From positions 27,446-91,445 of IMG/VR virus record IMGVR_UViG_3300024246_000004: 64,000 nt of DNA; one strand, 5' to 3'. The DNA comes from a virus (Duplodnaviria; Heunggongvirae; Uroviricota; Caudoviricetes). A program made the position numbers and the translations under genes. The notes under the pieces were generated by a model. That model was given only the letters and a program-made list of their open reading frames with translations. It searched no databases and had not been told where the DNA came from. Below are positions 1,093-11,843 of this stretch, in pieces (position 1 is the stretch's first letter; each line of letters opens with the position of its first letter).

Positions 1093-1166
1093 CGCGGGGT
1101 AGAGCAGCTCGGTAGCTCGTTGGGCTCATAACCCAAAAGTCGCAGGTTCAAATCCTGCCCCCGCTA
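1093..1166 (+). tRNA. tRNA-Met(CAT), initiator-like
   Basis: Cloverleaf with anticodon loop CTCATAA; GGG/CCC pairs closing the anticodon stem; unpaired 1:72 (C.U); T-arm GCAGG-TTCAAAT-CCTGC. Confidence 0.7.
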
Positions 1167-1215
1167 CTAACCGTCAGGTTCATAATCTGTCGGTGCGATC
1201 GAATACCTTGACCGC

Positions 1216-1566
1216 ATGCCGTACAAAGATCCAGAGGCCCGTAACGCCTATGCGCGAGCCTGGTACGCGAAGAATCAAGAAACGCATGCAGAGCTCGTGC
1301 GCCGTAACCGGGCGCGAGTAAAGGCTGAGGTGACGGAGTACCTCGGGAAGGTTAAGTCACATCCCTGCACAGATTGTGGCGGAACGTTCGACGCAGAGGT
1401 CATGGATTTCGATCATGTTTCGGGCGTGAAGTCGTTCAACATCAGCTCCGCGAAACAAGTTGGATACAGCCTGAGTCGCGTAAAAAAAGAAGTGGCGAAG
1501 TGCGAGCTAGTGTGCTCGAATTGTCATCGTCTACGCACGAAAGCCCGTAGAACGGCTACCGAATAG
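1216..1566 (+). CDS. HNH homing endonuclease
   Basis: HNH motif ...DFDHVSGVK...CELVCSNCH...; sits between tRNA genes. Confidence 0.75.
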   Translation: MPYKDPEARNAYARAWYAKNQETHAELVRRNRARVKAEVTEYLGKVKSHPCTDCGGTFDAEVMDFDHVSGVKSFNISSAKQVGYSLSRVKKEVAKCELVCSNCHRLRTKARRTATE

Positions 1567-1572
1567 CCTAAT

Positions 1573-1645
1573 TCCCCGTTGGAGTAACTGGCAACGTCAC
1601 CGCGCTCTGGACGCGGAGTTCGAGGTTCGAATCCTCGGCGGGGAG
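1573..1645 (+). tRNA. tRNA-Gln(CTG) (D-arm weak)
   Basis: Acceptor TCCCCGT/GCGGGGA, anticodon arm CCGCG-CTCTGGA-CGCGG, T-arm CGAGG-TTCGAAT-CCTCG. Confidence 0.5.
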
Positions 1646-1746
1646 CGAGTGCAGGGGCAAACGCCTGCCAGCGTGCGTCTCGGGTTCGGAGTAAGGATGG
1701 CAGTCCCCTCCGGATCAGGTGGGCGCCTCAATCAAAGCCCACCACA

Positions 1747-1821
1747 TGGCCCGGTATCCCAACGGAAGTAGGAGCTCGGCTCAGACCCGAGTAATGTGTG
1801 GGTTCGAATCCCACTCGGGCT
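1747..1821 (+). tRNA. Atypical tRNA with anticodon CAG (Leu-type anticodon, short variable arm, A73)
   Basis: Acceptor GGCCCGG/TCGGGCT, conserved D-region TATCCCAACGGAAGTAGGA, anticodon loop CTCAGAC, T-arm GTGGG-TTCGAAT-CCCAC. Confidence 0.5.
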
Positions 1822-1822
1822 A

Positions 1823-1907
1823 CGCGGTTGTGCTGGAATGGGAGACAGGCTGGCTTGAGGTGCCAGTGTCCCGCAAGGGGCGTGGGGGTTCGACTCCCCT
1901 CAACCGC
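1823..1907 (+). tRNA. tRNA-Leu(GAG), long variable arm
   Basis: Acceptor GCGGTTG/CAACCGC, anticodon loop TTGAGGT, variable-arm hairpin GTCCC-GCAA-GGGGC, T-loop TTCGACT. Confidence 0.75.
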
Positions 1908-1982
1908 ACTCCACGGCTAGATTCAGAACGAAACCCAGACACCACGCGCCGTGGCCACTGTCCGCCAACGAAAGGGGAGGTA

Positions 1983-2156
1983 ATGGCTAGGGAACATAAG
2001 GCCGACCTGACCGCCATCAAGGGCGCGCTTCAGGCGAACATCAACATCAAGCTCGCTGAAGCGGAGCTGGACGAGCGCAACGACAACCCCGTCGAGGCCA
2101 GGAACACTCGGCGTATCGCCGCCGAGTGGCAGAAGGTCCACGACGGCACCACCTGA
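1983..2156 (+). CDS. Small hypothetical protein (57 aa)
   Basis: Strong SD AAAGGGGAGG 6 nt before the ATG; the upstream part of the 145-aa track ORF overlaps tRNA genes and is discounted. Confidence 0.5.
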   Translation: MAREHKADLTAIKGALQANINIKLAEAELDERNDNPVEARNTRRIAAEWQKVHDGTT

Positions 2157-2209
2157 TCGGCTCGGCGGCCACATACAGCACGAAACCCAGATACGTGCGC
2201 CGCTGTCCG

Positions 2210-2282
2210 CCCGCATAGTCCAACCGGCAGAGGCACCCGATTTAAGTCCGGGGAGTTGTGCGTTCGAATCGCACTGCGGGCA
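2210..2282 (+). tRNA. Atypical tRNA with anticodon TAA (Leu-type, short variable arm, A73)
   Basis: Acceptor GCCCGCA/TGCGGGC perfect; D-region TAGTCCAACCGGCAGAGG; anticodon loop TTTAAGT closed by an A.C mismatch; T-arm GTGCG-TTCGAAT-CGCAC. Confidence 0.45.
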
Positions 2283-2283
2283 C

Positions 2284-2356
2284 GCCCAGGTATCCCAAGG
2301 GAAGAGGAAGCGGCTTCAAGTACCGCTAGTTGTGGGTTCGAATCCCACTCTGGGCA
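2284..2356 (+). tRNA. Atypical tRNA with anticodon CAA (Leu-type, short variable arm, A73)
   Basis: Acceptor GCCCAGG/TCTGGGC; D-region TATCCCAAGGGAAGAGGA; anticodon loop TTCAAGT closed by a C.A mismatch; T-arm identical to the 1747 element. Confidence 0.5.
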
Positions 2357-2357
2357 C

Positions 2358-2430
2358 GGCCGTGTAGCTCAGCTGGTAGAGCATCCCGCTCATAACGGGA
2401 AGGTCGCAGGATCAAGACCTGCCACGGCTA
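2358..2430 (+). tRNA. tRNA-Met(CAT) elongator-type (or Ile-lysidine)
   Basis: GGCCGTG-TA-GCTC-AGCTGGTAG-AGC; anticodon loop CTCATAA; unusual T-loop ATCAAGA. Confidence 0.65.
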
Positions 2431-2436
2431 CGGTGC

Positions 2437-2480
2437 GACAGCTAGGCTTCCCCCGGGCCCCACGCCCGCCTAGCTGTCGT
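2437..2480 (+). other. Stable hairpin (11-bp stem CGACAGCTAGG / CCTAGCTGTCG)
   Basis: Perfect inverted repeat seen directly in the sequence. Confidence 0.5.
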
Positions 2481-2550
2481 GCTACGCTAACACGGCACCG
2501 CCTGGCGGCCGAGAGTAGCTCGAAACCCGTATAAGTCCCGCCGCCAGTAC

Positions 2551-2575
2551 CGGCTTGTAGCTCAATGGCTCAACG
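2551..2575 (+). pseudogene. tRNA 5-prime-half fragment (acceptor plus D-arm, GGCTTGTAGCTCAATGG...)
   Basis: Matches the 5-prime half of tRNA-Thr-like genes in this array; no anticodon arm, T-arm or acceptor 3-prime strand follows; the HNH gene starts 19 nt downstream. Confidence 0.45.
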
Positions 2576-2593
2576 TTGTGGTAGGGTTGAGCT

Positions 2594-3178
2594 GTGAAGC
2601 AGAGCTGGAATGACGATGATCTGCGCCATGCAGTAGCTCAAGCAACTTCATGGCGTCAGGTCTCTCGTATTCTCGGCCTACAAGGGACCAATCCAACTCG
2701 GCTGCGCACAAGAGCTCAAGTTGCTGGCGTAGATTTCTCGCACTTCAAGGGGAGCAGATCCTTTTCCGATGAAGAGCTTCGGGATGCGGTCGCTGAGTCA
2801 GCAACTCCTTTCGAGGTGCAAAAGCGCCTAGGGAGGGGTGCGTGGCATTCAATTCAGAGGCGCATAAGGGAGTTGGGGCTAGAGTTTGGCCTGCCAGCAC
2901 CTGACTCGCGTCGAAAAAGTCTCAACCTAGTACTGACCCCCAACTCGACCTACCAGTCTGACAGGACACGCAAACGCCTCGTCGAAGCCGGACTAAAGGA
3001 GGAGAGGTGCGAGGGATGCGGCCTGGCGGAATGGCTAAATGGCCCGATACCCCTTCATCTCGACCACATTAATGGCGTGCACAATGATAACCGCCTAGAG
3101 AACCTTCGTATCCTCTGCCCCAACTGCCACTCCCTCACTCCCACGTGGGGAAACCGCAAGCGACCTTTGGCCTCCTAG
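2594..3178 (+). CDS. HNH homing endonuclease (paralog of 5554..6066)
   Basis: C-terminal CEGCG...HLDHINGVHNDNRLENLRILCPNCHSLT; about 50% identical to the 5554 ORF over its length. Confidence 0.75.
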   Translation: MKQSWNDDDLRHAVAQATSWRQVSRILGLQGTNPTRLRTRAQVAGVDFSHFKGSRSFSDEELRDAVAESATPFEVQKRLGRGAWHSIQRRIRELGLEFGLPAPDSRRKSLNLVLTPNSTYQSDRTRKRLVEAGLKEERCEGCGLAEWLNGPIPLHLDHINGVHNDNRLENLRILCPNCHSLTPTWGNRKRPLAS

Positions 3179-3240
3179 CTCAGTGGTAGAGCGCTTCTTT
3201 CACACAGAAGAGGTCCCGAGTCCGATTCTCGGGGAGGCTA
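3169..3240 (+). tRNA. tRNA-Val(CAC)
   Basis: Acceptor GGCCTCC/GGAGGCT; anticodon arm CTTCT-TTCACAC-AGAAG; T-arm CCGAG-TCCGATT-CTCGG; its 5-prime end overlaps the HNH stop codon TAG. Confidence 0.7.
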
Positions 3241-3348
3241 CGCGTCCGCCAACCCTAGAGAACTGCTGCAATGTGGCAGGGCACGGGAGAAGCAGCTCCC
3301 ACGCCCAGGCGGATGCCCCTGGGGCACCTAGGAAGGCCGCTGGGGTTA

Positions 3349-3423
3349 CAGCCTATGGCGCAGCTTGGCAGCGCGCCTGGTCGGGGACCAGGAGGTCGCC
3401 AGTTCAAATCTGGCTAGGCTGAC
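3349..3423 (+). tRNA. tRNA-Pro(GGG)
   Basis: C1-G72 acceptor CAGCCTA/TAGGCTG with A73 (bacterial Pro signature); D-arm GCGC-AGCTTGGCA-GCGC; anticodon loop TCGGGGA; T-arm GCCAG-TTCAAAT-CTGGC. Confidence 0.65.
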
Positions 3424-3476
3424 GTTGTGGTGGTCACGTAGCGTACGAGACCTATACCAAGCACACCGCCACGCAC

Positions 3477-3548
3477 CGCCTCGTAGCTCAGCGGCAGAGC
3501 GCCCGCCCGACACGCGGGAGGCCGGACGATCAACACGTCCCGAGGCGA
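3477..3548 (+). tRNA. tRNA-Val(GAC)
   Basis: CGCCTCG-TA-GCTC-AGCGGCA-GAGC; anticodon arm CCCGC-CCGACAC-GCGGG; unusual T-loop ATCAACA. Confidence 0.6.
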
Positions 3549-3583
3549 CGATCATCGGCAGGATGCGACAGGAGACGGACACC

Positions 3584-3760
3584 ATGGATACGGCAGCAGC
3601 CGAAACGAAGACCGCGCTTTCCACGGGGATCCTGGATGCGCGCGCCGTGCCGCTCGGGCGCCTTGCCCAGGAGGGCAACGGCTCGGAGGGAATGTCCCGC
3701 GTGCTGCCCGGCTTCGACGCCAAGAGGGTCGCGGTCGCGTCGTTCCAGTCCTCGGTCTAG
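3584..3760 (+). CDS. FxsA-like small protein with FXSXX-COOH C-terminus (...ASFQSSV)
   Basis: SD AGGAGA 7 nt upstream; C-terminal F-Q-S-S-V; paralogous to the next ORF. Confidence 0.55.
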   Translation: MDTAAAETKTALSTGILDARAVPLGRLAQEGNGSEGMSRVLPGFDAKRVAVASFQSSV

Positions 3761-3792
3761 CGGTCGCGATCCTCGACAGGAAGCAGTGGGAG

Positions 3793-3960
3793 ATGGACAG
3801 CACGGACGTGCTAGTGTCTGAGGTTCCCGACCTCAGGATGATGAGCCTCGCCGATCTTGCGCGGCTGCATTCGGGGAGGGCTCTGCAGAAGGTCGTCGCG
3901 GAGGCCCTGGAGCCCTCCGCCCGGCAGGTCTCCGTGGCGGCGTTCAACTCGTCCATCTAG
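3793..3960 (+). CDS. FxsA-like small protein with FXSXX-COOH C-terminus (...AAFNSSI)
   Basis: 55 aa; leader-like segment LPDLRMMSLADLARL...ALQKVVAEALE followed by AAFNSSI-COOH, the hallmark of the actinobacterial FXSXX-COOH (FxsA) family. Confidence 0.6.
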   Translation: MDSTDVLVSEVPDLRMMSLADLARLHSGRALQKVVAEALEPSARQVSVAAFNSSI

Positions 3961-3966
3961 TTTCAC

Positions 3967-4040
3967 GCGCCCGTAGCTCAGCGGATAGAGCGCCGCCGTC
4001 CTAAGGCGGGCCGTCGCTGGTTCGAATCCAGCCGGGCGCA
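3967..4040 (+). tRNA. tRNA-Arg(CCT)
   Basis: GCGCCCG-TA-GCTC-AGCGGATAG-AGC; anticodon loop GTCCTAA; T-arm GCTGG-TTCGAAT-CCAGC. Confidence 0.8.
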
Positions 4041-4159
4041 CCGTCTCTGGCCATTGTGGATGCGAAAACCTTGCGGTACCCGCCGGGGGCGTGATACGTT
4101 AATCGAGTCGGCAGCCGAAAAGGGTGCGGAAACCCGGATCTCATCGCCGCCGACGCACG

Positions 4160-4345
4160 ACCGATCGGATCCGCTCCAAGGTTGGACGTCTTCCTGTCTC
4201 GGCCCTTGGCGACCGACCGGCGTACCACAAGCACCACCCGGCGATCGTGGCTCGAACTCGAAGTGAGTCCCGAGTCGCCGGTAGCACGGATCGGCGGCTT
4301 CAAGGTTGGGTTTCTGGACTTCTTAGCCCTTGGCCGTCGATCATA
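4160..4345 (+). repeat. Two ~60-nt direct repeats (about 4160-4215 and 4285-4345) sharing GATCGG...CAAGGTTGG...GCCCTTGGC
   Basis: Seen by eye; each copy contains the CCAAGG/CCTTGG inverted pair; no cloverleaf could be folded. Confidence 0.4.
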
Positions 4346-4417
4346 GGTGGGTAGCTCAACTGGTAGAGCGCAGGTCTCCAAAACCTGTCGTTGGGGGTTC
4401 AAGTCCCTCCCCACCTG
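4345..4417 (+). tRNA. tRNA-Trp(CCA)
   Basis: AGGTGGG-TA-GCTC-AACTGGTAG-AGC; anticodon loop CTCCAAA; T-loop TTCAAGT. Confidence 0.8.
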
Positions 4418-4419
4418 CG

Positions 4420-4491
4420 GTGAGTATGGCCGAGCGGCTTAGGCACCGGTTTGTGGAACCGGGCAGACGGGTTCGACCCCCGTTACTCACA
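4420..4491 (+). tRNA. tRNA-His(GTG)
   Basis: Perfect acceptor GTGAGTA/TACTCAC; anticodon arm CCGGT-TTGTGGA-ACCGG; T-arm ACGGG-TTCGACC-CCCGT; a G at position -1. Confidence 0.65.
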
Positions 4492-4631
4492 CGTTCCGTA
4501 GCGTCAGCCTGGTGAGCGGCTACGGAGTTCGGCGAGCGGCACTGACCAACGTCCCAGTACCCAGAAATGGGGATAGAAACAGTCGCCGAATACACGAACG
4601 ACCTGCCCCGACGCGCACGCGGGCAGGCGGT

Positions 4632-4661
4632 CCGCCGAGCCCGATCACTCGGCGGACCGGG
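4632..4661 (+). other. Strong hairpin (11-bp stem GGTCCGCCGAG / CTCGGCGGACC)
   Basis: Perfect inverted repeat in a non-coding spacer of the tRNA array. Confidence 0.45.
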
Positions 4662-4735
4662 AAGTCTGGCGACGGAGTTGGGCCAGACCGGGCGGGCTGA
4701 CGTGGGTTAGGCCTTCCACAAAGTAAACTGAATAC

Positions 4736-4808
4736 GCGCCTGTAGCTCAGCGGAGAGAGCGCCTCACTACGGATGAGGAGGCCGGGGGTTCGAATCCCTC
4801 CAGGCGCA
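4736..4808 (+). tRNA. tRNA-Arg(ACG)
   Basis: GCGCCTG-TA-GCTC-AGCGGAGAG-AGC; anticodon arm CCTCA-CTACGGA-TGAGG; T-loop TTCGAAT. Confidence 0.85.
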
Positions 4809-4809
4809 C

Positions 4810-5545
4810 GAGCGATCGCCGTAGCTCAAAGGCCCGAGAGGACGCCTTATCGGGAGAGCCCCGCTGTACCCCATTAAGGGTGAACGACGGGAGATCCGGC
4901 CGAACCGGCGACGATCCTCCGGGTGTGCTGTACGCCCGGCCAAAAGAGGGACCATGGCCCTCGGCAGCGGCAAGGAGCGAAGGAAGCCTCATCGGGAGGT
5001 GTCTTGACGGCTGGTGATGTGAATGACGAGCCGTCACGTGGGCGAGGGAGCAGATCACACTGTAGCCCGAGCCCTGGAGGTTCGACCCCTCCCCTTTGCA
5101 CGGCAGGTGGCCGCCAGAACCCTTACCTGGCGGACGGAGAGGCCAACCCGGGACAGTGGTACGCGTAGCGGAATGCTCCCCGAGTAAGATCTCCGTACTC
5201 GTAGTAGCGGGCCCTGCGCTTTGACGGGTGGTCGGTTGAGGCAACCACACCGGAGCGTTTGGGGTCGCTCCCCCTCCGGAGATACTGGTTCGAATCCAGT
5301 CCCGTCAGCGCTCCGGCGATTGCAAGCGCCGGTGATGGACACGCGGGTGCGCACTCGTGTGGAATGGTGTACGTGGAGACGGTACGGATAGGGCCCCCTG
5401 AAGGGCCTGATTCCGGGACGGGCGGGTTCGAGTCCCGCAACACCGCGAACGACAGCCAAACAGGGCCCGGTATCCAACATGGGTGCGCTGTCGGTCATGG
5501 CGCCTTAGCTCAGTTGGAAGAGTCTGTCGGACCTGAGCTATATTG
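4810..5545 (+). ncRNA. Zone of tRNA-like elements and fragments that do not fold into standard cloverleaves
   Basis: Three canonical T-arm motifs (GGAGG-TTCGACC-CCTCC near 5085; ACTGG-TTCGAAT-CCAGT near 5295 with a perfect 7-bp acceptor TGACGGG/CCCGTCA spanning 5223-5313; GGCGGG-TTCGAGT-CCCGC near 5445), plus 5-prime fragments GGCCCGGTATCCAAC (5466) and GGCGCCTTAGCTCAGTTGGAAGAG (5499-5535). Confidence 0.35.
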
Positions 5546-5553
5546 TTTCCCGT

Positions 5554-6066
5554 ATGGCTCGATACAGCAAGAATCGGTGCAGATGGACGGATGAACAACT
5601 CAGGGAAGCGGTCGCCAGCAGTCAATCGATCCGCCAGGTCATCGGGATACTCGGCCTGTCGGTGACGGCGGCCGGGAACTGGGGTACGGTCAAAAAGCAT
5701 GTGAGTCGGCTCGGGCTGGACACCTCCCACTGGACGGGGCAATCCTGGGTGGGAACCCGCGAAAACCACCCGGCACGACTCCCTCTTGAACAGATATTGG
5801 TACCAGGTTCAACGTACAGAACTTCTGCGCTTCGAGACCGCCTCATCGGAGCTGGACTCAAAGAATGGCGATGCGAAAGGTGCTTGCGGATCGACTGGGA
5901 GGGGGATCGCATTCCCCTTGAGGTGGATCATGCGAATGGAGTGCCGGACGACCATAGGATCGAGAATCTGCGCTTGCTCTGCCCCAATTGCCATGCGTTA
6001 ACGCCGACATGGCGCGGGCGCAAGAACGCTAGATCATACCACGGCAACGTAGCTGAGAAGGATTAG
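5554..6066 (+). CDS. HNH homing endonuclease (paralog of 2594..3178)
   Basis: C-terminal CERCL...EVDHANGVPDDHRIENLRLLCPNCHALT; preceded directly by a tRNA 5-prime fragment. Confidence 0.75.
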   Translation: MARYSKNRCRWTDEQLREAVASSQSIRQVIGILGLSVTAAGNWGTVKKHVSRLGLDTSHWTGQSWVGTRENHPARLPLEQILVPGSTYRTSALRDRLIGAGLKEWRCERCLRIDWEGDRIPLEVDHANGVPDDHRIENLRLLCPNCHALTPTWRGRKNARSYHGNVAEKD

Positions 6067-6248
6067 CGAGGCTCTGAAAAAGCCTAGAGGCTGGATCGTT
6101 ACCAGTCGTTGCCACGCGGTACAAGCCTGCAAGAAGGCGAGTGCGCAGCTTCGTGTCATAGGCTGCCGAAGACCGATGGCCCTATCGGATGCCATGCTGG
6201 TCGGCTAAGCGAAGCCGCGTCCCCGGCTCGTACCCGGGGGCCGTACCT

Positions 6249-6339
6249 GGAGAGGTCGCCTAGTCCGGTCTATGGCGCCGACCTGCTAAGTCGGTGGGTT
6301 CCGCAAGGGGCCTCATGGGTTCGAATCCCATCCTCTCCG
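6249..6339 (+). tRNA. tRNA-Ser(GCT), long variable arm
   Basis: GGAGAGG/CCTCTCC; anticodon arm CCGAC-CTGCTAA-GTCGG; T-arm ATGGG-TTCGAAT-CCCAT. Confidence 0.8.
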
Positions 6340-6419
6340 CGCAAAACAGTTGGACAGCCCAGCGTGGATGAGATACGTTAGTTCTCGCAGGGGTTCGAGC
6401 CAGGGATAAGCTAGGCGGG

Positions 6420-6466
6420 CCTGTAAAGCCCTACCTTGGAGGTTCGAATCCTCCCGGGCCCACCAA
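6420..6466 (+). pseudogene. tRNA-like minihelix (acceptor GGGCCTG/CGGGCCC plus T-arm GGAGG-TTCGAAT-CCTCC) lacking D and anticodon arms
   Basis: Only 13 nt lie between the acceptor 5-prime strand and the T-arm. Confidence 0.35.
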
Positions 6467-6488
6467 ACCGAGCGAAAGGAGAGTACTG

Positions 6489-6671
6489 ATGGCCAGCAGA
6501 GAGACCAAGGAGCTCCTCGCGGCACTGGACCGGCACCGGGAGTACACGGCGGAGCAGGAACGGATCGCGCACGACAACCTGTTCCGCGTCACGGACCCCG
6601 TCGAGGGAGCCGTCTCGGTGAAGGACACCGGCAAGATCAAGAGGATCCTCAAGCGAACGCGGAACGGCTAG
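6489..6671 (+). CDS. Small hypothetical protein (60 aa)
   Basis: SD GAAAGGAGAG 7 nt upstream of the ATG. Confidence 0.55.
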   Translation: MASRETKELLAALDRHREYTAEQERIAHDNLFRVTDPVEGAVSVKDTGKIKRILKRTRNG

Positions 6672-6717
6672 CACTACCCGTAGTACGCTAATTGACAACT
6701 CCAGAGTGACGCGAAAT

Positions 6718-6788
6718 GCGGATGTAGCTCAATGGTAGAGCGCTACCTTGCCATGGTAGATACGCGAGTTCGATTCTCGTCATCCGCT
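6718..6788 (+). tRNA. tRNA-Gly(GCC)
   Basis: GCGGATG-TA-GCTC-AATGGTAG-AGC; anticodon loop TTGCCAT; U73. Confidence 0.85.
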
Positions 6789-6888
6789 CAACCCGGCGGC
6801 CAGTCTCAGCTCGAAACCCAGAGACCCAACGTCGCCGGACGAGGTGCCCAAGTACCCTCCGAGACTCAAACTCCTCGCGGCACCGCAT

Positions 6889-6963
6889 GTCCCCGTCGTC
6901 TAGCGGTTCCAGGACATCACCCTCTCAAGGTGAAAATCGCCGGTTCGAATCCGGTCGGGGATA
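6889..6963 (+). tRNA. tRNA-Glu(CTC)
   Basis: Glu-type D-arm GTCTAGCGGTTCCAGGAC; anticodon arm TCACC-CTCTCAA-GGTGA. Confidence 0.8.
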
Positions 6964-7017
6964 CTCTCCGGCAGCCAGAATGAGCAGGAAACCCAAGTAC
7001 AGTTCGCTGCCGGACAT

Positions 7018-7091
7018 GGCCCGTTCGTCTAGCGGCCGAGGATCCCACCCCTTCAAGGTGCGAGGCACGGGTTCGAATCCCGTACGGGCTA
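7018..7091 (+). tRNA. tRNA-Glu(TTC)
   Basis: Glu-type D-arm GTCTAGCGGCCGAGGAT; anticodon loop CCTTCAA; T-arm ACGGG-TTCGAAT-CCCGT. Confidence 0.75.
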
Positions 7092-7154
7092 CGGCGTCGC
7101 GGCCACGGCGACAATCGCGGTAGTGGGCGAGCAAGATGCCCGCACAGTGGCAGT

Positions 7155-7228
7155 GCTGTAGTGGCTCAATATGGCGGAGCGTCGCGCTTCCAACGCGAAG
7201 GTCGCAGGTTCGAACCCTGTCTACAGCG
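7155..7228 (+). tRNA. tRNA-Gly(TCC)
   Basis: GCTGTAG/CTACAGC; anticodon arm TCGCG-CTTCCAA-CGCGA. Confidence 0.8.
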
Positions 7229-7229
7229 C

Positions 7230-7301
7230 CGGAATGTGGGGTAATGGTCGCCCGCCTGCCTTGGGAGCAGGTCCACGCAGGTTCGATTCCTGTCATTCCG
7301 A
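7230..7301 (+). tRNA. tRNA-Pro(TGG)
   Basis: C1-G72 acceptor CGGAATG/CATTCCG with A73; anticodon arm CCTGC-CTTGGGA-GCAGG. Confidence 0.75.
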
Positions 7302-7416
7302 CGATCCAAGGGCAAGGATGAGAAGCGGGAACCCAAGGGTAGCGGACATGGTGAATGTATCTAGCCGAGCCGCTGAACTTTCCGTCGGCCAGATACGCCG
7401 GGGGAGCCGCAATCAA

Positions 7417-7490
<74 letters not shown>

Positions 7491-7500
7491 CGTACACTAT

Positions 7501-7573
7501 GCACCTGTGGCCGAGAGGCGAGGCGCTTCCCTGCAAAGGAAGAATGACCCCGGTTCAAATCCGGGCAGGTGCT
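7501..7573 (+). tRNA. tRNA-Cys(GCA)
   Basis: Perfect acceptor GCACCTG/CAGGTGC with U73; anticodon arm CTTCC-CTGCAAA-GGAAG. Confidence 0.8.
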
Positions 7574-7628
7574 CGATTCGGTGGCCATATACGGTACGAG
7601 ATCCACGCCAAGGCTCGCCACCGGACAC

Positions 7629-7699
7629 GCCCTTGTAGCTCAATGGCAGAGCACTCGTTTCGTAATCGAGGGACCGGCGTCCGATTCGTCGCAGGGGCT
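7629..7699 (+). tRNA. tRNA-Thr(CGT)
   Basis: GCCCTTG-TA-GCTC-AATGGCA-GAGC; anticodon loop TTCGTAA; T-loop TCCGATT. Confidence 0.65.
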
Positions 7700-7753
7700 C
7701 AGATCGGCAGCAATGTAGCTTTCGAAGACCATAACCGGCTCGCTGTCGGTCAT

Positions 7754-7826
7754 GGGGGTGTAGCTCAGGGGTTAGAGCGCTTCCCTGATAAGGAAGAGGT
7801 CGGAGGTTCAAATCCTCCCATCCCCA
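7754..7826 (+). tRNA. tRNA-Ile(GAT)
   Basis: GGGGGTG-TA-GCTC-AGGGGTTAG-AGC; anticodon arm CTTCC-CTGATAA-GGAAG. Confidence 0.85.
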
Positions 7827-7830
7827 CTTA

Positions 7831-7905
7831 GGGCCCGTAGCTCAGTCAGGTTAGAGCAGCTTCCTTTTAAGTAGCGGGTCGCAGGTTCGAATCCTGTCGG
7901 GCCCA
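7831..7905 (+). tRNA. tRNA-Lys(TTT)
   Basis: GGGCCCG/CGGGCCC; anticodon loop CTTTTAA; T-arm GCAGG-TTCGAAT-CCTGT. Confidence 0.75.
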
Positions 7906-7922
7906 CCCGCTAGACTCTTGCT

Positions 7923-8363
7923 GTGATCACCGGTAAGAGCTGTGGCAAGTGCGGTGAAGTGAAGAACCTTGAAGAATTCTCAAGGAACTCGCGTAGAAAA
8001 GATGGCCGCCAAACATGGTGCAAGAAATGTGCCCATGCACGCAGAAATGAATGGGCCAAAGAGAATCGCGATAAATGTCGGACTTACCGCCTCTACGACG
8101 CCCATGGAATCCGTATCGCCGACAAGCAGCGCATGTATGAAGAGCAAGGCGGCCTCTGTGCGGCCTGCCAGAAGAAGGAAGCTGTCGTAGTCGATCACGA
8201 CCATTCCTGCTGCCCCAACAACCGGGGCGGCTGTGGGAAGTGCGTGCGAGCGCTCCTTTGTAACCGCTGCAACCTCCTCGCGGGGTTCTTTGAGACCGAC
8301 CCGGAGGCTTGCGAGAGCGTCCAGGCGTATCTTTTGCGGTACAGTAAGACCAACCCTCCGTAA
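7923..8363 (+). CDS. Endonuclease VII-like (T4 gp49-type) nuclease
   Basis: N-terminal CGKCG Zn motif, central VVDHDHSCCP, then CNRCNLLAG: the signature of the Endonuclease_7 family. Confidence 0.7.
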   Translation: MITGKSCGKCGEVKNLEEFSRNSRRKDGRQTWCKKCAHARRNEWAKENRDKCRTYRLYDAHGIRIADKQRMYEEQGGLCAACQKKEAVVVDHDHSCCPNNRGGCGKCVRALLCNRCNLLAGFFETDPEACESVQAYLLRYSKTNPP

Positions 8364-8426
8364 CTCAGCGGCCAGAGTTGCGCCCTCTTAAGGCGAAGGT
8401 CGCCGGTTCGAATCCGGCCGGGGGGA
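8354..8426 (+). tRNA. tRNA-Lys(CTT)
   Basis: Acceptor CCCTCCG/CGGGGGG; D-arm ACTC-AGCGGCCA-GAGT; anticodon loop CTCTTAA; T-arm GCCGG-TTCGAAT-CCGGC; its 5-prime end overlaps the last codons of the endonuclease VII gene. Confidence 0.6.
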
Positions 8427-8529
8427 CGAGGCGTGCGGCACGCCGCGCGGAGATTAGGGCTAGCCCCCCAGGGGAGCCCCTCCAAAAAGCCAACTCCCTA
8501 TACTAGTTCGGGACGAGGCAGCCGCATAA

Positions 8530-8602
8530 GGGCCCGTAGCTCAGCTGGTAGAGCACTCGCCTCGCACGCGAGAGGTCCGGGGTTCGACTCCCCGCCGGTC
8601 CA
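8530..8602 (+). tRNA. tRNA-Ala(CGC)
   Basis: G3.U70 wobble in the acceptor (Ala identity element); anticodon arm CTCGC-CTCGCAC-GCGAG; T-loop TTCGACT. Confidence 0.75.
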
Positions 8603-8669
8603 CGATGCGTAGCGGCGCGCAACGGGCTAAGTAACCCGGAAGCCATGCTAGCCACTGGCAGCCGCGTAA

Positions 8670-8740
8670 GGGGTTGTAGCTCAACGGTGAGCACCTCGTT
8701 TGCATCGAGGCGGACGCGGGTTCGAATCCCGTCAACTCCA
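8670..8740 (+). tRNA. tRNA-Ala(TGC)
   Basis: G3.U70; anticodon arm CCTCG-TTTGCAT-CGAGG. Confidence 0.8.
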
Positions 8741-8876
8741 CTGGGCGGCATGCGGCATGCCGTGGGGAGCGCAGCTAGGAACTGCGCCGTCTGAATGAAG
8801 ACCACTCCCCGGAAGACGAAGGTAGGCAACCGCAAGGGTCCTAGCCTGAAGTGGGGAATCTGGAGTCAGCCGCATT

Positions 8877-8952
8877 GGGCCTATAGCTCAGCCCGGCAGA
8901 GCGCCCGCTCGGCAGGCGGGAGGTTTCGTCGGTTCGAATCCGACTAGGTCCA
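8877..8952 (+). tRNA. tRNA-Ala(GGC)
   Basis: G3.U70; anticodon arm CCCGC-TCGGCAG-GCGGG; T-arm GTCGG-TTCGAAT-CCGAC. Confidence 0.65.
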
Positions 8953-9160
8953 CTACCGCCGCGTGGTCGGCGGGGAGCGACGCATGTCGGAGATTGCGCG
9001 CTCGCAGGACAAGGCTTACCCGTGTTGGATTCCGACTAGGCACGGGAGGTAGCGTGTCCATCCGCACCGCCCCGCAACGGGCTGCCGGACCGGGTTGTGC
9101 CGGTTAGGCTGCAATACCGAGTGAGTCGCCCGGCACTCGTTAATCCCTACCGGCGAACCT

Positions 9161-9248
9161 GGAGAGGTCGGCCCCGCTGGCGGAGGCACTGTCCTGGAAT
9201 GGCAGCGGCCGTTGATTCGGTTCGTGGGTTCGATTCCCACTCTCTCCG
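9161..9248 (+). tRNA. tRNA-Ser(GGA), long variable arm
   Basis: GGAGAGG/TCTCTCC; anticodon arm CTGTC-CTGGAAT-GGCAG; T-loop TTCGATT. Confidence 0.7.
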
Positions 9249-9547
9249 CGAACTCGGCGACCAGTCTTGGAACGCAGCTCACTCTGCCTTCGTTGCCGAG
9301 TCTCACTGTCCGACAGCCAAGCGGTTCCGCGCACCATGTGCCGGGCGCTGTCGGGCTCCATGCGGGCCCTGGGGAGGTAACCTGACGGTCCACGGTGCAC
9401 CAGCGACCGTCAGCAGCTCCGTCCACTCGGAGCGCCCGCTCGATCGACAGCCATAGTGGCCTCGCACCCCGCGCTCCCTACGCTGTCGAGCTCAACCCGG
9501 TGGCCATAGCGAGAACCCTCCCACAGGACACTCCCGCCGCCGGTCGT

Positions 9548-9621
9548 GGTCCTGTAGAGCAGCTGGAGTGCTCGCCACCCTGTCAAGGTGGAGGTCGCGG
9601 GTTCAAGTCCCGTCAGGACCG
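9548..9621 (+). tRNA. tRNA-Asp(GTC)
   Basis: GGTCCTG/CAGGACC with G73; anticodon arm CCACC-CTGTCAA-GGTGG; T-loop TTCAAGT. Confidence 0.85.
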
Positions 9622-9625
9622 CTAA

Positions 9626-9698
9626 GGCGACGTAGCTCAGCGGATAGAGCGCTTCCCTCCGAAGGAAGAGGCCGTGGGTTCAAATCCCACCGTCGCCA
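9626..9698 (+). tRNA. tRNA-Arg(CCG)
   Basis: GGCGACG/CGTCGCC; anticodon arm CTTCC-CTCCGAA-GGAAG. Confidence 0.8.
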
Positions 9699-9699
9699 C

Positions 9700-9782
9700 G
9701 GAAGGTCCGACACTGGTGCGTCAAGCGTCTTCGAAAGGCGTGGCGGTGAAAGCCGTTAGCGGTTCGAGTCCGCTACCTTCCG
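9700..9782 (+). tRNA. tRNA-Ser(CGA), long variable arm
   Basis: GGAAGGT/ACCTTCC; anticodon loop TTCGAAA; T-arm AGCGG-TTCGAGT-CCGCT. Confidence 0.65.
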
Positions 9783-9834
9783 CTACCAGCAGCCGAGGTC
9801 AACGCGTATCCCAAAATCGTTCTGCTGCTGGTTT

Positions 9835-9918
9835 GGAGAGTTGCCGGAACGGTAACGGCGCCGCCTTGAAAGCGGACGGCAGGGAAACCTGGAGCAGGTT
9901 CGACCCCTGCACTCTCCG
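9835..9918 (+). tRNA. tRNA-Ser(TGA), long variable arm
   Basis: GGAGAGT/ACTCTCC; anticodon loop CTTGAAA; variable-arm hairpin CAGG-GAAA-CCTG; T-loop TTCGACC. Confidence 0.7.
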
Positions 9919-9923
9919 CGCGG

Positions 9924-9994
9924 TCCCCGCTAGTTCAATGGCAGAACGCTCGACTGTTAATCGAGAAGTACCTGGATCGATACCAGGGCGGGGA
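9924..9994 (+). tRNA. tRNA-Asn(GTT)
   Basis: TCCCCGC/GCGGGGA; anticodon arm CTCGA-CTGTTAA-TCGAG; unusual T-loop ATCGATA. Confidence 0.65.
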
Positions 9995-10012
9995 GCATGA
10001 AAGGGGGCGGTT

Positions 10013-10519: not shown

Positions 10520-10849
10520 GTGCACGTCGTTATGGTAATGGGCGAGGGCGAGGTAGCCCTCCAGGTCTACGGGCCGTACACCACTGCGGGCGAGGCCGAG
10601 GGGGCACGCTCCACCATCGAGCAGCTGCTCGCCCCCTTCCATACTGGAGCCTCAGTGGAGGTCGTGCCGCTGCGCACGATCAACGTCTCGCCGGTGCAGG
10701 TGCCGCACATCTGCCCACCCGTGGTGGTGTTCCCGCAGTGGCAGTACCCGGCATCCCCATGGGTTTCCAACCCTTACGCCCCCTACCGCGTCACTCTGAG
10801 TGCAGGCCCAGGCAGCAGCCCAGGCCTCTACCTGGGAGACGCCGAATGA
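10520..10849 (+). CDS. Hypothetical protein
   Basis: GTG start with GAGGAG SD 8 nt upstream; stop overlaps the next start (ATGA). Confidence 0.45.
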   Translation: MHVVMVMGEGEVALQVYGPYTTAGEAEGARSTIEQLLAPFHTGASVEVVPLRTINVSPVQVPHICPPVVVFPQWQYPASPWVSNPYAPYRVTLSAGPGSSPGLYLGDAE

Positions 10850-11325
10850 TGCCGCAGGACGAGCAGGAGCGCCGCAAACTGGAGCTGGGCAACGCCGCCC
10901 TCCAGGCCCTCGCCGCCCTTCAACCGGTGCGCGACGGCTCGGCCCACTGGCTCGTCGCGGTGCGCTGCCTGAGCGAACTGGGGGACGCGGCGGCGCGCTT
11001 CATGGCCGACTACTACGACGCCATGACCGCCGAGGAGATGGACGTGGAGCTCACCGAGAGCGGGTCGGTACAGATCGAGGCGCCGCGCGGCGAGCCGAAG
11101 ATCGGTTTCTGGTGCGGCTTCACGCGGGCGGAGATGAGAGAGATCAAGGAGTGGGACAACAAGGCCTATACCGGCGACGTCGTGCATGACGCGGCGCTGC
11201 GATGGATCCGCGAGGCTGAGGGTATGCGAATTGCGCTGGCCAAACTCAAAGGTTCCGCGCCGACGCGCGCGGAGATCCTCACGGGCTTGATGCTGGACGA
11301 GACCCCTCCAGGTGCGGTGGAGTAA
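10846..11325 (+). CDS. Hypothetical protein (160 aa)
   Basis: ATGATG start coupled to the upstream stop; codon usage matches its neighbours. Confidence 0.5.
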   Translation: MMPQDEQERRKLELGNAALQALAALQPVRDGSAHWLVAVRCLSELGDAAARFMADYYDAMTAEEMDVELTESGSVQIEAPRGEPKIGFWCGFTRAEMREIKEWDNKAYTGDVVHDAALRWIREAEGMRIALAKLKGSAPTRAEILTGLMLDETPPGAVE

Positions 11326-11843
11326 TGCCGTCTTGGGCCCGCTACCGCGTATTCGCGTGGGATGAATTCCTGCGCCTGTGGTGCGAGGACTGCTACACCG
11401 AGGGCAACGAGCTGGGCTTTTGGTCGGAAGTCGAGCCGGTTCCCGTCAGCGAGATGATCGGCTTGATCGTCCAGCACGAGCTCGCCGTCCACCGGGACCC
11501 TCCTTCGTCGCCGACCAAACTGGTGCGAGACGGCGTGCCTGACGCGATCAGGGCCAACGGCCAGATTCCGATCACCCGTACCGCCGACACCGAGGAGTAC
11601 GTCAAGCTCCTGCGTGAGAAGCTGCTGGAGGAAGTCGGGGAGTTTCTGGACGCCGGGCCGGAGGGCGAGGCGGAGGAGCTGGCTGACGTACTTGAGGTGG
11701 TCTTCGCGCTTGCGCGGCTCACAGGCTTGGGTGCCGTCCTGGCGGCGCGCACTGAGAAGCGCAAGCGCCTTGGTACGTTCATGGACCGCGTGGTCTGGGA
11801 GGGCAACTTCGAAACCGCACGGAAGGAGGGTTCTGATGCTTGA
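11325..11843 (+). CDS. MazG-like nucleotide pyrophosphohydrolase domain protein
   Basis: C-terminal ...EEVGEFLDA...EELADVLEVVFALARLTGL...KRKRLG; start couples to the upstream stop (TAATG). Confidence 0.6.
   Translation: MPSWARYRVFAWDEFLRLWCEDCYTEGNELGFWSEVEPVPVSEMIGLIVQHELAVHRDPPSSPTKLVRDGVPDAIRANGQIPITRTADTEEYVKLLREKLLEEVGEFLDAGPEGEAEELADVLEVVFALARLTGLGAVLAARTEKRKRLGTFMDRVVWEGNFETARKEGSDA

What the first reader, a model, noticed from the sequence alone, without database searches (positions are those of the whole stretch)
1747..2356. Family of three atypical tRNAs with Leu anticodons (CAG, TAA, CAA) but short variable arms and a conserved non-canonical D-region
Elements at 1747-1821, 2210-2282 and 2284-2356 have good acceptor and T arms (two share an identical T-arm GTGGGTTCGAATCCCAC) and the A73 discriminator that is a LeuRS identity element. 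They lack the long variable arm universal in bacterial tRNA-Leu. They share a D-region motif TA(G)TCC(C)AA-NGG-NAG-NAGG with only a 3-bp stem, and two have an A.C or C.A mismatch closing the anticodon loop. A canonical type-II tRNA-Leu(GAG) sits among them. TTA (anticodon UAA) is the rare, regulatory codon in high-GC actinomycetes. These could be type-I-like Leu isoacceptors, tRNAs resistant to a host anticodon nuclease, or decoys.
Basis: partly seen in the sequence, partly recalled or inferred. Interest (0 to 1): 0.75.

Follow-up and report, generated by a model that had tools for sequence, protein, structure and literature searches.

The report
Short-armed leucine tRNAs in a phage
A high-GC phage carries three real leucine tRNA genes that lack the usual long extra arm, but this short form is already documented in Streptomyces, is the ordinary chromosomal form in many actinobacteria and is common in phages, so the finding is real but largely ordinary.

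Summary
Three tRNA genes at 1748-1822 (CAG), 2209-2282 (UAA) and 2284-2356 (CAA) have Leu anticodons, 5-6 nt variable loops, A73, a shared 3-bp D stem with C13.A22, and an A.C or C.A 31:39 mismatch in two. ARAGORN and Rfam agree on the anticodons (45.6-45.9 bits, cut-off 29).

The premise that a long variable arm is universal in bacterial tRNA-Leu is wrong for the likely host phylum. S. coelicolor tRNALeu(CAA) is type I and is leucylated by its LeuRS (Fan 2019).

Anticodon-free motif scans found the same D arm plus short loop only on Leu anticodons: 130 of 131 ARAGORN calls in viral contigs and 116 of 118 in genomes. The three exceptions look like shifted UAA loops. In genomes, 100 of 116 loci were Actinomycetota, mostly single chromosomal genes. 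All copies have A73 and nearly all have the A15:U48 pair.

A model built from chromosomal genes ranks the three as the window's best hits. Short tRNA-Leu genes are also annotated in T5-like, Pseudomonas, Mycobacterium and Streptomyces phages.

Best reading: ordinary type I leucine isoacceptors within a 36-tRNA phage array. Decoy and nuclease-evasion roles are untested. One mildly unusual point is that their position 37 does not match the chromosomal rule, which suggests anticodon switching.

The parts
1748..1822 (+). type I (short variable loop, 6 nt) tRNA-Leu, anticodon CAG; loop CUCAGAC (A37)
   Evidence: ARAGORN. Rfam 45.7 bits. Family model R1 60.8 bits. The ortholog in the relative phage L250 11450-11525 is 84% identical, with compensatory changes at 4:69, 28:42 and 29:41.
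1824..1908 (+). canonical type II tRNA-Leu, anticodon GAG, with a long variable arm
   Evidence: ARAGORN. Rfam 49.8 bits. RNAfold gives a five-armed fold. R1 scores it only 33.9 bits.
2209..2282 (+). type I tRNA-Leu, anticodon UAA; 5-nt variable loop, A31.C39 mismatch, loop UUUAAGU (G37, U38)
   Evidence: ARAGORN. Rfam 45.6 bits. R1 78.1 bits, the best hit in the window. About 80% identical to chromosomal Pseudarthrobacter, Paenarthrobacter and Kutzneria genes.
2284..2356 (+). type I tRNA-Leu, anticodon CAA; 5-nt variable loop, C31.A39 mismatch, loop UUCAAGU (G37, U38)
   Evidence: ARAGORN. Rfam 45.9 bits. R1 71.8 bits. 80.6-87.3% identical over 55-62 nt BLAST matches to the annotated 74-nt tRNA-Leu(caa) of Streptomyces phages Wakanda, pSt2308 and GiJojo. 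84-85% identical to chromosomal actinobacterial CAA genes.
1093..9996 (+). context: phage tRNA array of 36 ARAGORN-called tRNA genes, all on the + strand, with small ORFs and HNH endonuclease ORFs interspersed
   Evidence: ARAGORN. Rfam. HNH Pfam hits for 2594-3178 and 5554-6066. A syntenic 37-tRNA array is present in relative L250.

Best explanation
These are three functional type I (short-variable-loop) leucine tRNAs. They belong to a tRNALeu lineage that is the normal chromosomal form of the UAA, CAA and UAG isoacceptors in many Actinomycetota and that phages carry widely.

Inferred mechanism:
- They are transcribed as part of the 36-gene phage tRNA array and processed. CCA is added after transcription, because none is encoded.
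- The host LeuRS charges them with leucine. Bacterial LeuRS does not read the anticodon and does not need the long arm. It uses U8-A14, the A15:U48 tertiary pair, the placement of G18G19 in a large D loop on a 3-bp D stem, the 5-nt variable-loop length and, in some species, A73.
- They then decode CUG (CAG), UUA/UUG (UAA) and UUG (CAA). The type II GAG gene reads CUC/CUU.
- Together they give the phage a near-complete leucine-decoding set of its own, which keeps phage translation independent of the state of the host tRNA pool.

Shown here: tRNA structure, family membership, presence of the identity elements, and structural conservation in an ortholog. Inferred: charging by LeuRS (by analogy with the S. 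coelicolor experiment), expression, and the benefit to the phage.
For: - tRNA status: ARAGORN and Rfam agree, as does an independent RNAfold.
- Specificity of the scaffold: a motif that fixes only the D arm, the short spacing and the T loop returned 131 tRNAs in viral contigs, 130 called with Leu anticodons (taa 52, tag 34, caa 30, gag 7, aag 5, cag 2) and one left unassigned by ARAGORN. In genomes it returned 118 tRNAs, 116 with Leu anticodons and 2 that look like mis-called UAA loops. In the same loci, none of about 870 non-Leu tRNAs and none of 32 type II Leu tRNAs carry the D motif.
- Features the motif did not constrain: A73 in 237 of 237 copies, A15:U48 in 232 of 237, and G-C to U-A covariation at 10:25.
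- Covariation in 44 chromosomal genes: 98.9% of cells paired, 16 of 20 pairs with double changes, and 0 of 500 shuffles reaching the observed covariation score.
- Membership: model R1, built only from those chromosomal genes, gives the three window genes 78.1, 71.8 and 60.8 bits. These are the top three hits in the window; the next is tRNA-Trp at 54.9.
- The ortholog of the CAG gene in a relative phage (TerL 85% identical) keeps every helix through compensatory changes.
- Experiment in the literature: ScoLeuRS leucylates type I tRNALeu(CAA) with kcat/Km 6.25 versus 14.2 s-1 uM-1 for type II. U8-A14 and the 5-nt loop length matter (PMC6614811).
- M. tuberculosis is described as having long variable loops 'especially' in tRNALeu-2, 3 and 5 (PMC11541572). 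This suggests, but does not state, that its other tRNALeu genes are short.
- Cultured phages annotate 74-77 nt tRNA-Leu genes of this build.
Against: - No expression or charging data exist for these genes, and the host is unknown.
- E. coli LeuRS and S. purpurogeneiscleroticus LeuRS could not charge the S. coelicolor type I tRNA. Charging therefore depends on the host enzyme and cannot be assumed.
- I could not obtain the S. coelicolor tRNALeu(CAA) sequence, and none of the 120 genome loci was a Streptomyces. The mutant names in Fan et al. imply C48, where the window genes have U48. Direct homology to the one biochemically tested tRNA is therefore unproven.
- The CAG gene has a 6-nt variable loop and an extra D-loop base. 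Its R1 score (60.8) is only modestly above the best non-Leu tRNA (54.9).
- Position 37 departs from the chromosomal rule in all three genes, and the effect on decoding is unknown.
- The relative phage lacks the UAA gene and has a different CAA gene, so the trio is not conserved as a set.
Confidence: 0.8

Rival explanations
1. Defence-evading variants. The short arm and/or the altered anticodon loops (U32, G37 and U38 in UAA and CAA; A37 in CAG; A.C at 31:39) are kept because they make these tRNAs poor substrates for host tRNA-targeting toxins or nucleases. The phage would then retain leucine decoding when host tRNALeu is destroyed. This is compatible with the main explanation. It adds a selective reason rather than replacing the function.
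For: - The same window encodes an RNA-repair set: PNKP, an Rnl1-like ligase, a second RNA ligase, a Thg1-like enzyme and RlaP. This fits a phage that faces tRNA damage.
- In the chromosomal single-copy genes sampled, UAA and CAA always have A37 (74 of 74) and UAG always has G37 (13 of 13). Phage and array copies often break this rule.
- Type I CAG and GAG versions occur mostly in multi-tRNA arrays.
- Literature precedents: anticodon-loop changes in actinophage tRNAs are predicted to block VapC-type nucleases (PMC10264068). The M. tuberculosis toxin MenT3 needs the long variable loop of tRNASer (PMC11541572).
Against: - The short arm is itself a host-like trait in Actinomycetota, so it needs no defence explanation.
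- The A.C 31:39 mismatch is also chromosomal, in 9 of 21 CAA genes.
- No nuclease is known that targets these tRNALeu species in this unknown host.
- The position-37 pattern is equally explained by neutral anticodon switching.
Confidence: 0.2
2. A bldA bypass. If the host is a Streptomyces, the UAA gene supplies a UUA decoder whenever the phage infects. Phage genes containing TTA would then be independent of the developmentally limited host bldA tRNA.
For: - The phage has few TTA codons but not none: 8 in about 13,700 codons of rough gene calls, including one in the Thg1-like gene, plus one in the HNH ORF 5554-6066.
- The CAA gene is most similar to tRNAs of Streptomyces phages.
- The dependence of UUA decoding on bldA is established in the literature (PMC6614811 discussion).
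Against: - The host is unknown.
- The nearest relative phage has the same array without a UAA gene.
- Type I tRNALeu(UAA) is the commonest anticodon of this family in phages of all G+C contents, so carrying one needs no Streptomyces-specific reason.
Confidence: 0.12
3. Decaying or non-functional copies, that is, tRNA pseudogenes that lost the variable arm by deletion.
For: - They score lower than most tRNAs of the array with the general Rfam model (about 46 bits against 53-76).
- Two have a mismatch next to the anticodon loop.
- The array contains other degenerate tRNA-like pieces.
Against: - All helices are intact, and the ortholog shows compensatory changes.
- The same build is a conserved single-copy chromosomal gene in about 94 sampled actinobacterial loci, with strong covariation.
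- The lower Rfam score is a property of the family, not a sign of decay. The family-specific model scores them 61-78 bits.
Confidence: 0.04
4. Decoys, or tRNAs charged with a different amino acid. They would act as sponges for a nuclease or synthetase, or recode Leu codons.
For: Nothing beyond the unusual appearance. Deliberately mistranslating tRNAs are known in Streptomyces from my own knowledge of the literature; this was not checked here.
Against: - They carry the complete known LeuRS recognition set: U8-A14, A15:U48, G18G19 and A73.
- The scaffold is tied to Leu anticodons in 246 of 249 ARAGORN calls, and the other three look like mis-set UAA loops.
- A tested member of the class is leucylated.
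Confidence: 0.03

Closest known systems
Streptomyces coelicolor type I tRNALeu(CAA) (Fan, Huang, Ji and Wang, NAR 2019, PMC6614811)
   Same: A bacterial cytoplasmic tRNALeu with a 5-nt variable loop, U8-A14, G18G19 and A73. It coexists with type II tRNALeu and is served by a single LeuRS. It comes from a high-GC actinobacterium.
   Different: It is a chromosomal host gene and only the CAA isoacceptor is type I there. The phage has the build on CAG, UAA and CAA. Its variable loop is reported as A44 C45 A46 G47 C48, whereas the window genes end in U48.
Single-copy chromosomal type I tRNALeu(UAA/CAA/UAG) of Actinomycetota (Nocardia, Mycobacterium, Rhodococcus, Corynebacterium, Arthrobacter, Bifidobacterium, Nocardioides and others; found here)
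   Same: Same D arm (UA-GCC/UCC-C-AA-YN-GG-CAG-A-GGC/GGA), A15:U48, a 5-nt variable loop and A73. They are 80-85% identical to the window genes, and some CAA genes have A.C at 31:39.
   Different: Chromosomal copies keep A37 with UAA and CAA, and G37 with UAG. Type I CAG is almost absent as a single chromosomal gene. The window has G37-U38 on UAA and CAA, and A37 on CAG.
Short tRNA-Leu genes of cultured phages: Streptomyces phages Wakanda, GiJojo and pSt2308 (74 nt, caa), Mycobacterium phage Bromden (75 nt), Pseudomonas phage ZC08 (77 nt), T5-like coliphage GreteKellenberger (77 nt, 'codon recognized: TTA')
   Same: Same architecture, located in phage tRNA clusters and annotated simply as tRNA-Leu. 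The Streptomyces phage copies share the UUCAAGU loop and the 31:39 mismatch.
   Different: These are different phages; the window phage has no close relative in the cultured collection. Each tRNA cluster inspected (Wakanda, GiJojo, pSt2308) has one short Leu gene, against three here; Bromden, ZC08 and GreteKellenberger were viewed only within about 350 bp.
Short-variable-loop tRNALeu(TAG) in Mycobacterium tRNA gene clusters (Behra et al. 2019, PMC6582537)
   Same: A tRNA-array copy of tRNALeu with a short variable loop, in an array that also holds an HNH endonuclease gene and is linked to phages.
   Different: It lies in a bacterial genome island, has a different anticodon, and was noted there only in passing.
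Animal mitochondrial tRNALeu(UUR/CUN)
   Same: Type I tRNALeu with A73. Human mitochondrial LeuRS charges the S. coelicolor type I tRNA.
   Different: It is organellar and of unrelated sequence, with reduced D and T loops. ScoLeuRS does not charge it.

Membership tests
tRNA (Rfam RF00005) | Full-length match to the covariance model at or above the gathering score of 29 bits | tested here: met
   45.7, 45.6 and 45.9 bits, model positions 1-71 of 71. ARAGORN calls all three.
Type II (long-arm) bacterial tRNALeu | Variable arm of more than 10 nt that forms a stem-loop | tested here: not met
   Variable regions are 6, 5 and 5 nt. The neighbouring GAG gene at 1824-1908 does have the long arm.
Bacterial type I tRNALeu (S. 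coelicolor CAA type) | Leu anticodon on a cloverleaf with a short variable loop (5 nt reported as important) | tested here: met
   Anticodons CAG, UAA and CAA. Loops are 5 nt in UAA and CAA and 6 nt in CAG. The 5-nt requirement is from PMC6614811.
Bacterial type I tRNALeu (S. coelicolor CAA type) | U8-A14 tertiary pair and G18G19 in the D loop | tested here: met
   U8, A14 and the GG doublet are present in all three.
Bacterial type I tRNALeu (S. coelicolor CAA type) | Leucylation by the host LeuRS | not testable with these tools
   Shown only for the S. coelicolor tRNA. The host of this phage is unknown.
Bacterial type I tRNALeu (S. coelicolor CAA type) | Sequence homology to the S. coelicolor gene itself | not tested
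   The sequence is not in the paper's text and no supplement is held.
Actinomycetota/phage type I tRNALeu family (as delimited here) | D arm N10-N12 + C13 + A14A15 + 1-2 nt + GG + NAG + A22 + 3' stem, with 10:25 G-C or U-A | tested here: met
   UAA and CAA match the search motif exactly. CAG matches with one extra U before A22. In the sampled loci the motif is found only on Leu-anticodon tRNAs.
Actinomycetota/phage type I tRNALeu family (as delimited here) | A15:U48 pair and A73 | tested here: met
   U48 and A73 are present in all three. Across the family, U48 occurs in 232 of 237 copies and A73 in 237 of 237.
Actinomycetota/phage type I tRNALeu family (as delimited here) | Scores best with a covariance model built from chromosomal members only | tested here: met
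   R1 gives 78.1, 71.8 and 60.8 bits, the top three of the window. The next is Trp at 54.9, and type II GAG scores 33.9. The margin for CAG is modest.
Nuclease-evading phage tRNAs (van den Berg et al. 2023 type) | Anticodon-loop substitutions, relative to the host tRNA, at a known nuclease recognition or cleavage site | tested here: inconclusive
   The loops differ from chromosomal homologs at positions 32, 37 and 38. The host and any relevant nuclease are unknown.
Nuclease-evading phage tRNAs (van den Berg et al. 2023 type) | Demonstrated resistance to cleavage | not testable with these tools
   This needs biochemistry.

The most novel reading that the evidence does not exclude
Phages and other mobile tRNA arrays have taken the actinobacterial type I tRNALeu scaffold and moved it by single anticodon changes onto all six Leu anticodons. 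This produced isoacceptors with no chromosomal counterpart: CAG with A37, and UAA and CAA with G37-U38. The arrays have also spread the scaffold far beyond Actinomycetota, for example into T5-like coliphages and Pseudomonas phages. In this reading the short arm and the altered loops are selected because they escape host toxins or nucleases that recognise long-arm tRNAs or native anticodon loops, and the window's trio is one instance of that strategy.
Probability: 0.15. Interest if true: 0.6.

Novelty: new member of a known kind. Interest (0 to 1): 0.3.

Why it matters
For this window, the result removes an apparent anomaly. The three genes are normal leucine tRNAs of a documented but little-known class, and annotators need not treat short tRNA-Leu calls in actinophages as errors.

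The by-products may be more useful than the finding:
- The type I tRNALeu build appears to be the standard chromosomal form for the UAA, CAA and UAG isoacceptors across many Actinomycetota.
- It is common in phage tRNA clusters of very different hosts, including hosts whose LeuRS is reported not to charge the Streptomyces type I tRNA.
- Phage copies break the chromosomal position-37 rule.

If that pattern reflects selection rather than drift, it would tie tRNA architecture to the tRNA-centred arms race between phages and bacteria.

Tried and rejected
- Megablast of 1500-2600 against cultured phages found nothing. The blastn search gave only short tRNA-sized hits, so no close cultured relative exists.
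- The longest ORF, 54387-57866(-), matched nothing in Pfam or among phages. It is a spurious antisense frame. The real gene is the portal on the + strand.
- I tried to obtain the S. coelicolor tRNALeu(CAA) sequence from Fan et al. It is not in the text and no supplement is held.
The plasmid search gave one Arthrobacter replicon only.
- Alternative fold with a different anticodon: rejected. ARAGORN, Infernal and RNAfold agree.
- Derivation from another isotype by anticodon change: rejected. The D-arm motif occurs on no non-Leu tRNA among about 1,000 in the sampled loci, apart from two ARAGORN 'Phe(aaa)' calls that by eye are UAA tRNAs with a shifted loop.
- The bacterial Schlafen paper was checked as a possible long-arm-specific nuclease. 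No such specificity is reported for the bacterial enzyme.
- The paper on Streptomyces UUA and phages says nothing about phage tRNA structure.
- One literature query failed on a term that was too short.
Full report
**What is there.**
The window is a high-GC (about 62-68%) tailed-phage genome segment. It has a portal gene at 54273-57695(+), a large terminase at 23958-25379(+) and a capsid-like gene at 60903-62774(+). No close relative exists among 50,697 cultured phage records.

Positions 1093-9996 hold 36 tRNA genes on the + strand. Within this array ARAGORN calls tRNA-Leu(cag) at 1748-1823, tRNA-Leu(gag) at 1824-1909, tRNA-Leu(taa) at 2209-2283 and tRNA-Leu(caa) at 2284-2357. Rfam's tRNA model matches 1748-1822, 2209-2282 and 2284-2356 end to end at 45.7, 45.6 and 45.9 bits against a cut-off of 29. 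The long-arm GAG gene scores 49.8 bits.

RNAfold, with no tRNA knowledge, recovers the acceptor, anticodon and T helices and the same anticodon loops. Neither is met.

Every descriptive detail checks out:
- A73 in all three.
- An identical T arm in the CAG and CAA genes.
- Variable loops of 6, 5 and 5 nt.
- A 3-bp D stem followed by C13.A22.
- A31.C39 in the UAA gene and C31.A39 in the CAA gene.

**Is the build peculiar to these genes?**
No. The blastn search already hit 74-nt genes annotated tRNA-Leu(caa) in Streptomyces phages Wakanda, GiJojo and pSt2308. These have the same D arm, the same UUCAAGU loop and the same 31:39 mismatch.

I then scanned IMG/VR with a motif taken from the D arm, a spacing that only a short variable region allows, and the T loop. 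The anticodon, discriminator and all stems were left free (CCAAN{1,2}GGNAGAGGMN{26,28}GTTCRANTC).
- The scan stopped at its 120-locus limit and yielded 131 tRNAs. ARAGORN called 130 with a leucine anticodon (taa 52, tag 34, caa 30, gag 7, aag 5, cag 2) and left one unassigned.
- They come from contigs of 30-66% G+C.
- In the same loci, none of about 870 non-Leu tRNAs and none of 32 long-arm Leu tRNAs carries the D motif.

The long-arm Leu genes have UGGCGGAAYNGGCAGACGC where the short ones have UAGCCCAAYNGGCAGAGGC. The loop layout is the same, the 12:23 pair is flipped and position 13 changes from G to C. The 'non-canonical D region' is therefore the leucine-type D arm.

**Bacterial genomes.**
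- It gave 118 tRNAs: taa 61, caa 25, tag 17, cag 10, gag 3, plus two calls labelled Phe(aaa) that by eye are UAA tRNAs with a shifted loop.
- Of 116 loci with a called hit, 100 are Actinomycetota. They include Nocardia, Mycobacterium, Rhodococcus, Corynebacterium, Gordonia, Arthrobacter, Bifidobacterium, Nocardioides, Amycolatopsis, Actinomadura and Acidimicrobiia.
- In 94 of those 100 the gene sits with at most one other tRNA in 8 kb of a large chromosomal contig. It is thus an ordinary housekeeping gene.
- The CAG and GAG versions, and most non-actinobacterial hits, sit in arrays of 3-34 tRNAs.

Features the motif did not force are nearly invariant across 237 distinct viral and genomic copies:
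- A73 in 237 of 237.
- U48, which with A15 forms the A15:U48 tertiary pair, in 232 of 237.
- A 5-nt variable loop in about 90%.
- 10:25 alternating between G-C and U-A.

On 44 chromosomal genes, 98.9% of cells pair, 16 of 20 pairs show double changes, and no shuffle out of 500 reaches the observed covariation. Slid controls collapse to 34-51% paired.

A covariance model built from those 44 chromosomal genes alone scores the window's UAA, CAA and CAG genes at 78.1, 71.8 and 60.8 bits. These are the three best hits in the window. The next is tRNA-Trp at 54.9, and the type II GAG gene scores 33.9. The margin for the CAG gene is modest, and I report it as such.

**What is already known.**
Fan et al. 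(NAR 2019, PMC6614811) showed the following:
- S. coelicolor has one type I tRNALeu(CAA) beside four type II isoacceptors.
- Its single LeuRS charges both types (kcat/Km 6.25 versus 14.2 s-1 uM-1).
- U8-A14 and the 5-nt loop length matter, and A73 does not.
- E. coli LeuRS and one other Streptomyces LeuRS cannot charge this tRNA.

Behra et al. (PMC6582537) noted a short-loop tRNALeu(TAG) in a Mycobacterium tRNA cluster. A MenT3 study says long variable loops occur 'especially' in M. tuberculosis tRNALeu-2, 3 and 5. This suggests, but does not state, that its other tRNALeu genes are short.

Cultured phages also carry the build. A type I Leu(UAA) query matched 414 phage records. I checked a 77-nt tRNA-Leu ('codon recognized: TTA') in a T5-like coliphage, a 77-nt gene in Pseudomonas phage ZC08 and a 75-nt gene in Mycobacterium phage Bromden. 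All three have the same architecture.

The statement that the long arm is universal in bacterial tRNA-Leu is therefore incorrect, and the class is known. I found no paper describing its breadth in phages, though the library searched is incomplete.

**How it most likely works.**
The three genes carry the elements the literature assigns to bacterial LeuRS recognition, none of which involves the anticodon or the long arm:
- U8-A14.
- A15:U48.
- G18G19 positioned in a large D loop.
- A73.

I infer that the host LeuRS charges them with leucine and that they read CUG, UUA/UUG and UUG, while the type II GAG gene reads CUC/CUU. No CUA-specific UAG tRNA is present.

Rough gene calls give the following Leu codon shares: CTG 51%, CTC 32%, TTG 7.8%, CTT 4.5%, CTA 3.6% and TTA 0.7%. 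TTA occurs 8 times in about 13,700 codons. The CAG gene therefore serves the commonest codon and the UAA gene a very rare one.

Structural selection is visible in the nearest relative, IMG/VR contig 3300044706_000074 (TerL 85% identical, syntenic 37-tRNA array). Its CAG ortholog is 84% identical, and every stem difference is compensated: C4-G69 to G4-C69, U28-A42 to C28-G42, and C29-G41 to U29-A41.

The relative has a different type I CAA gene and no UAA gene. The set therefore turns over quickly, and the UAA gene is not essential to the lineage.

**What is slightly unusual.**
In single-copy chromosomal genes, position 37 follows the anticodon strictly: A37 with UAA or CAA (74 of 74) and G37 with UAG (13 of 13). 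Phage and array copies often break the rule:
- G37 with UAA or CAA in 12 of 80 viral copies.
- A37 with UAG in 14 of 34 viral copies.

The window breaks it three times. Its UAA and CAA loops (UUUAAGU, UUCAAGU) look like the chromosomal UAG loop or an array CAG loop (UUUAGGU, UUCAGGU) with G36 changed to A. Its CAG loop (CUCAGAC) looks like the chromosomal CAA loop (CUCAAAC) with A36 changed to G.

The simplest reading is anticodon switching on one scaffold. Identity tolerates this because LeuRS ignores the anticodon. Whether the resulting loops are neutral, affect modification (the A36-A37-A38 context is lost) or help evade host nucleases cannot be decided here.

The A.C 31:39 mismatch is not phage-specific. 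It occurs in 9 of 21 chromosomal CAA genes.

**Rivals.**
- Defence evasion is plausible as an added layer. The window encodes a T4-type polynucleotide kinase-phosphatase, an Rnl1-like ligase, a second RNA ligase, a Thg1-like enzyme and RlaP. Published work argues that actinophage tRNAs carry loop changes that block VapC-type nucleases. However, the short arm is a host trait, and no relevant nuclease is known for this phage's host.
- A bldA bypass would need a Streptomyces host, and the relative's lack of the gene weakens it.
- Pseudogenes, decoys and recoding tRNAs are disfavoured by the intact and compensated helices, by the complete Leu identity set, and by the link between the scaffold and Leu anticodons (246 of 249 ARAGORN calls, with three apparent mis-calls).

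**Limits.**
- The motif fixes C12, C13, A14, A15, G18G19, A22 and the T loop, so invariance at those positions is by construction.
- The host is unknown.
- The S. coelicolor sequence could not be aligned.
- Nothing here shows expression or charging.

**Verdict.**
They are a new member of a known kind, so overall interest is low to moderate.

Noticed in passing
window 43158-53390, minus strand: A cluster of RNA/tRNA-repair genes by Pfam: RlaP nucleotidyltransferase (43158-44207), T4-type polynucleotide kinase-phosphatase (45491-46390), Rnl1-like RNA ligase (46390-47553), Thg1-like 3'-5' polymerase (49599-50576) and a second RNA ligase with a PHA02142 OB fold (52263-53390). A Band 7/SPFH gene (48527-49582) lies among them. 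This suggests the phage faces host tRNA damage.
   Followed up: partly
window 6391-6462 (+CCA at 6463-6465), + strand: A short tRNA-Tyr(GUA)-like gene with a 4-5 nt variable region, a weak D arm and an encoded CCA. Rfam scores it 31.5 bits, just above the cut-off. ARAGORN finds it only at a relaxed threshold. Bacterial tRNATyr is normally long-armed, and the relative phage has an 83-nt type II Tyr at the syntenic place (L250 15005-15087). One similar short Tyr was seen in viral locus L084. This may be more unusual than the Leu genes.
   Followed up: partly
window 4810-5450, + strand: tRNA-like pieces that no standard call explains. An 88-nt element at 5222-5309 is read by relaxed ARAGORN as Gly(ccc) with a 13-nt insertion in the anticodon loop. 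An 82-nt element at 5365-5446 is read as Gln(ctg) with a long extra arm. A T-arm plus acceptor-like end lies near 5068-5100. Rfam found nothing here at E<=1.
   Followed up: partly
window 1216-1566, 2594-3178, 5554-6066, + strand: Lower-GC (54-58%) ORFs sit inside the tRNA array. Two have HNH endonuclease domains. Each HNH ORF is preceded by a sequence resembling the 5' half of a tRNA (about 2553-2590 and 5497-5535) and runs into the next tRNA gene. This looks like homing-endonuclease insertion next to tRNA genes.
   Followed up: no
window 21554-21655 (-) and 31849-31921 (-): ARAGORN calls a 102-nt 'tRNA-Gly(tcc)' and a 73-nt tRNA-Ile(gat) far from the array, on the opposite strand and inside ORF-dense DNA. 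The second also scores 31.6 bits with the Leu family model. They were not examined and may be false positives or stray tRNA genes.
   Followed up: no
L250 (IMGVR_UViG_3300044706_000074, 118.9 kb), array at 10781-19607: The closest relative found (TerL 85%, ParB-like ORF 76% identical) has a syntenic 37-tRNA array. It differs in content: no Leu(UAA), a different type I Leu(CAA), and extra Tyr, Thr(ggt) and Arg(gcg) genes. tRNA content therefore turns over quickly between related phages.
   Followed up: partly
family-wide (viral loci L005-L124, genome loci L125-L244): Type I tRNALeu with the same D arm occurs in phages of hosts that are not actinobacteria, including T5-like coliphages and Pseudomonas phage ZC08, and in tRNA arrays of Planctomycetota, Myxococcota, Nostoc and Elusimicrobia genomes. 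E. coli LeuRS is reported not to charge the S. coelicolor type I tRNA, so how the coliphage copies are charged is an open question.
   Followed up: partly
L004 (Gordonia phage Smoothie) 1095-1182 and 1446-1526: Two annotated 'tRNA-OTHER / undetermined' genes of 81-88 nt have normal acceptor, D and T arms but a disrupted anticodon region. They were hit through their T arm and the neighbouring tRNA-Trp.
   Followed up: no
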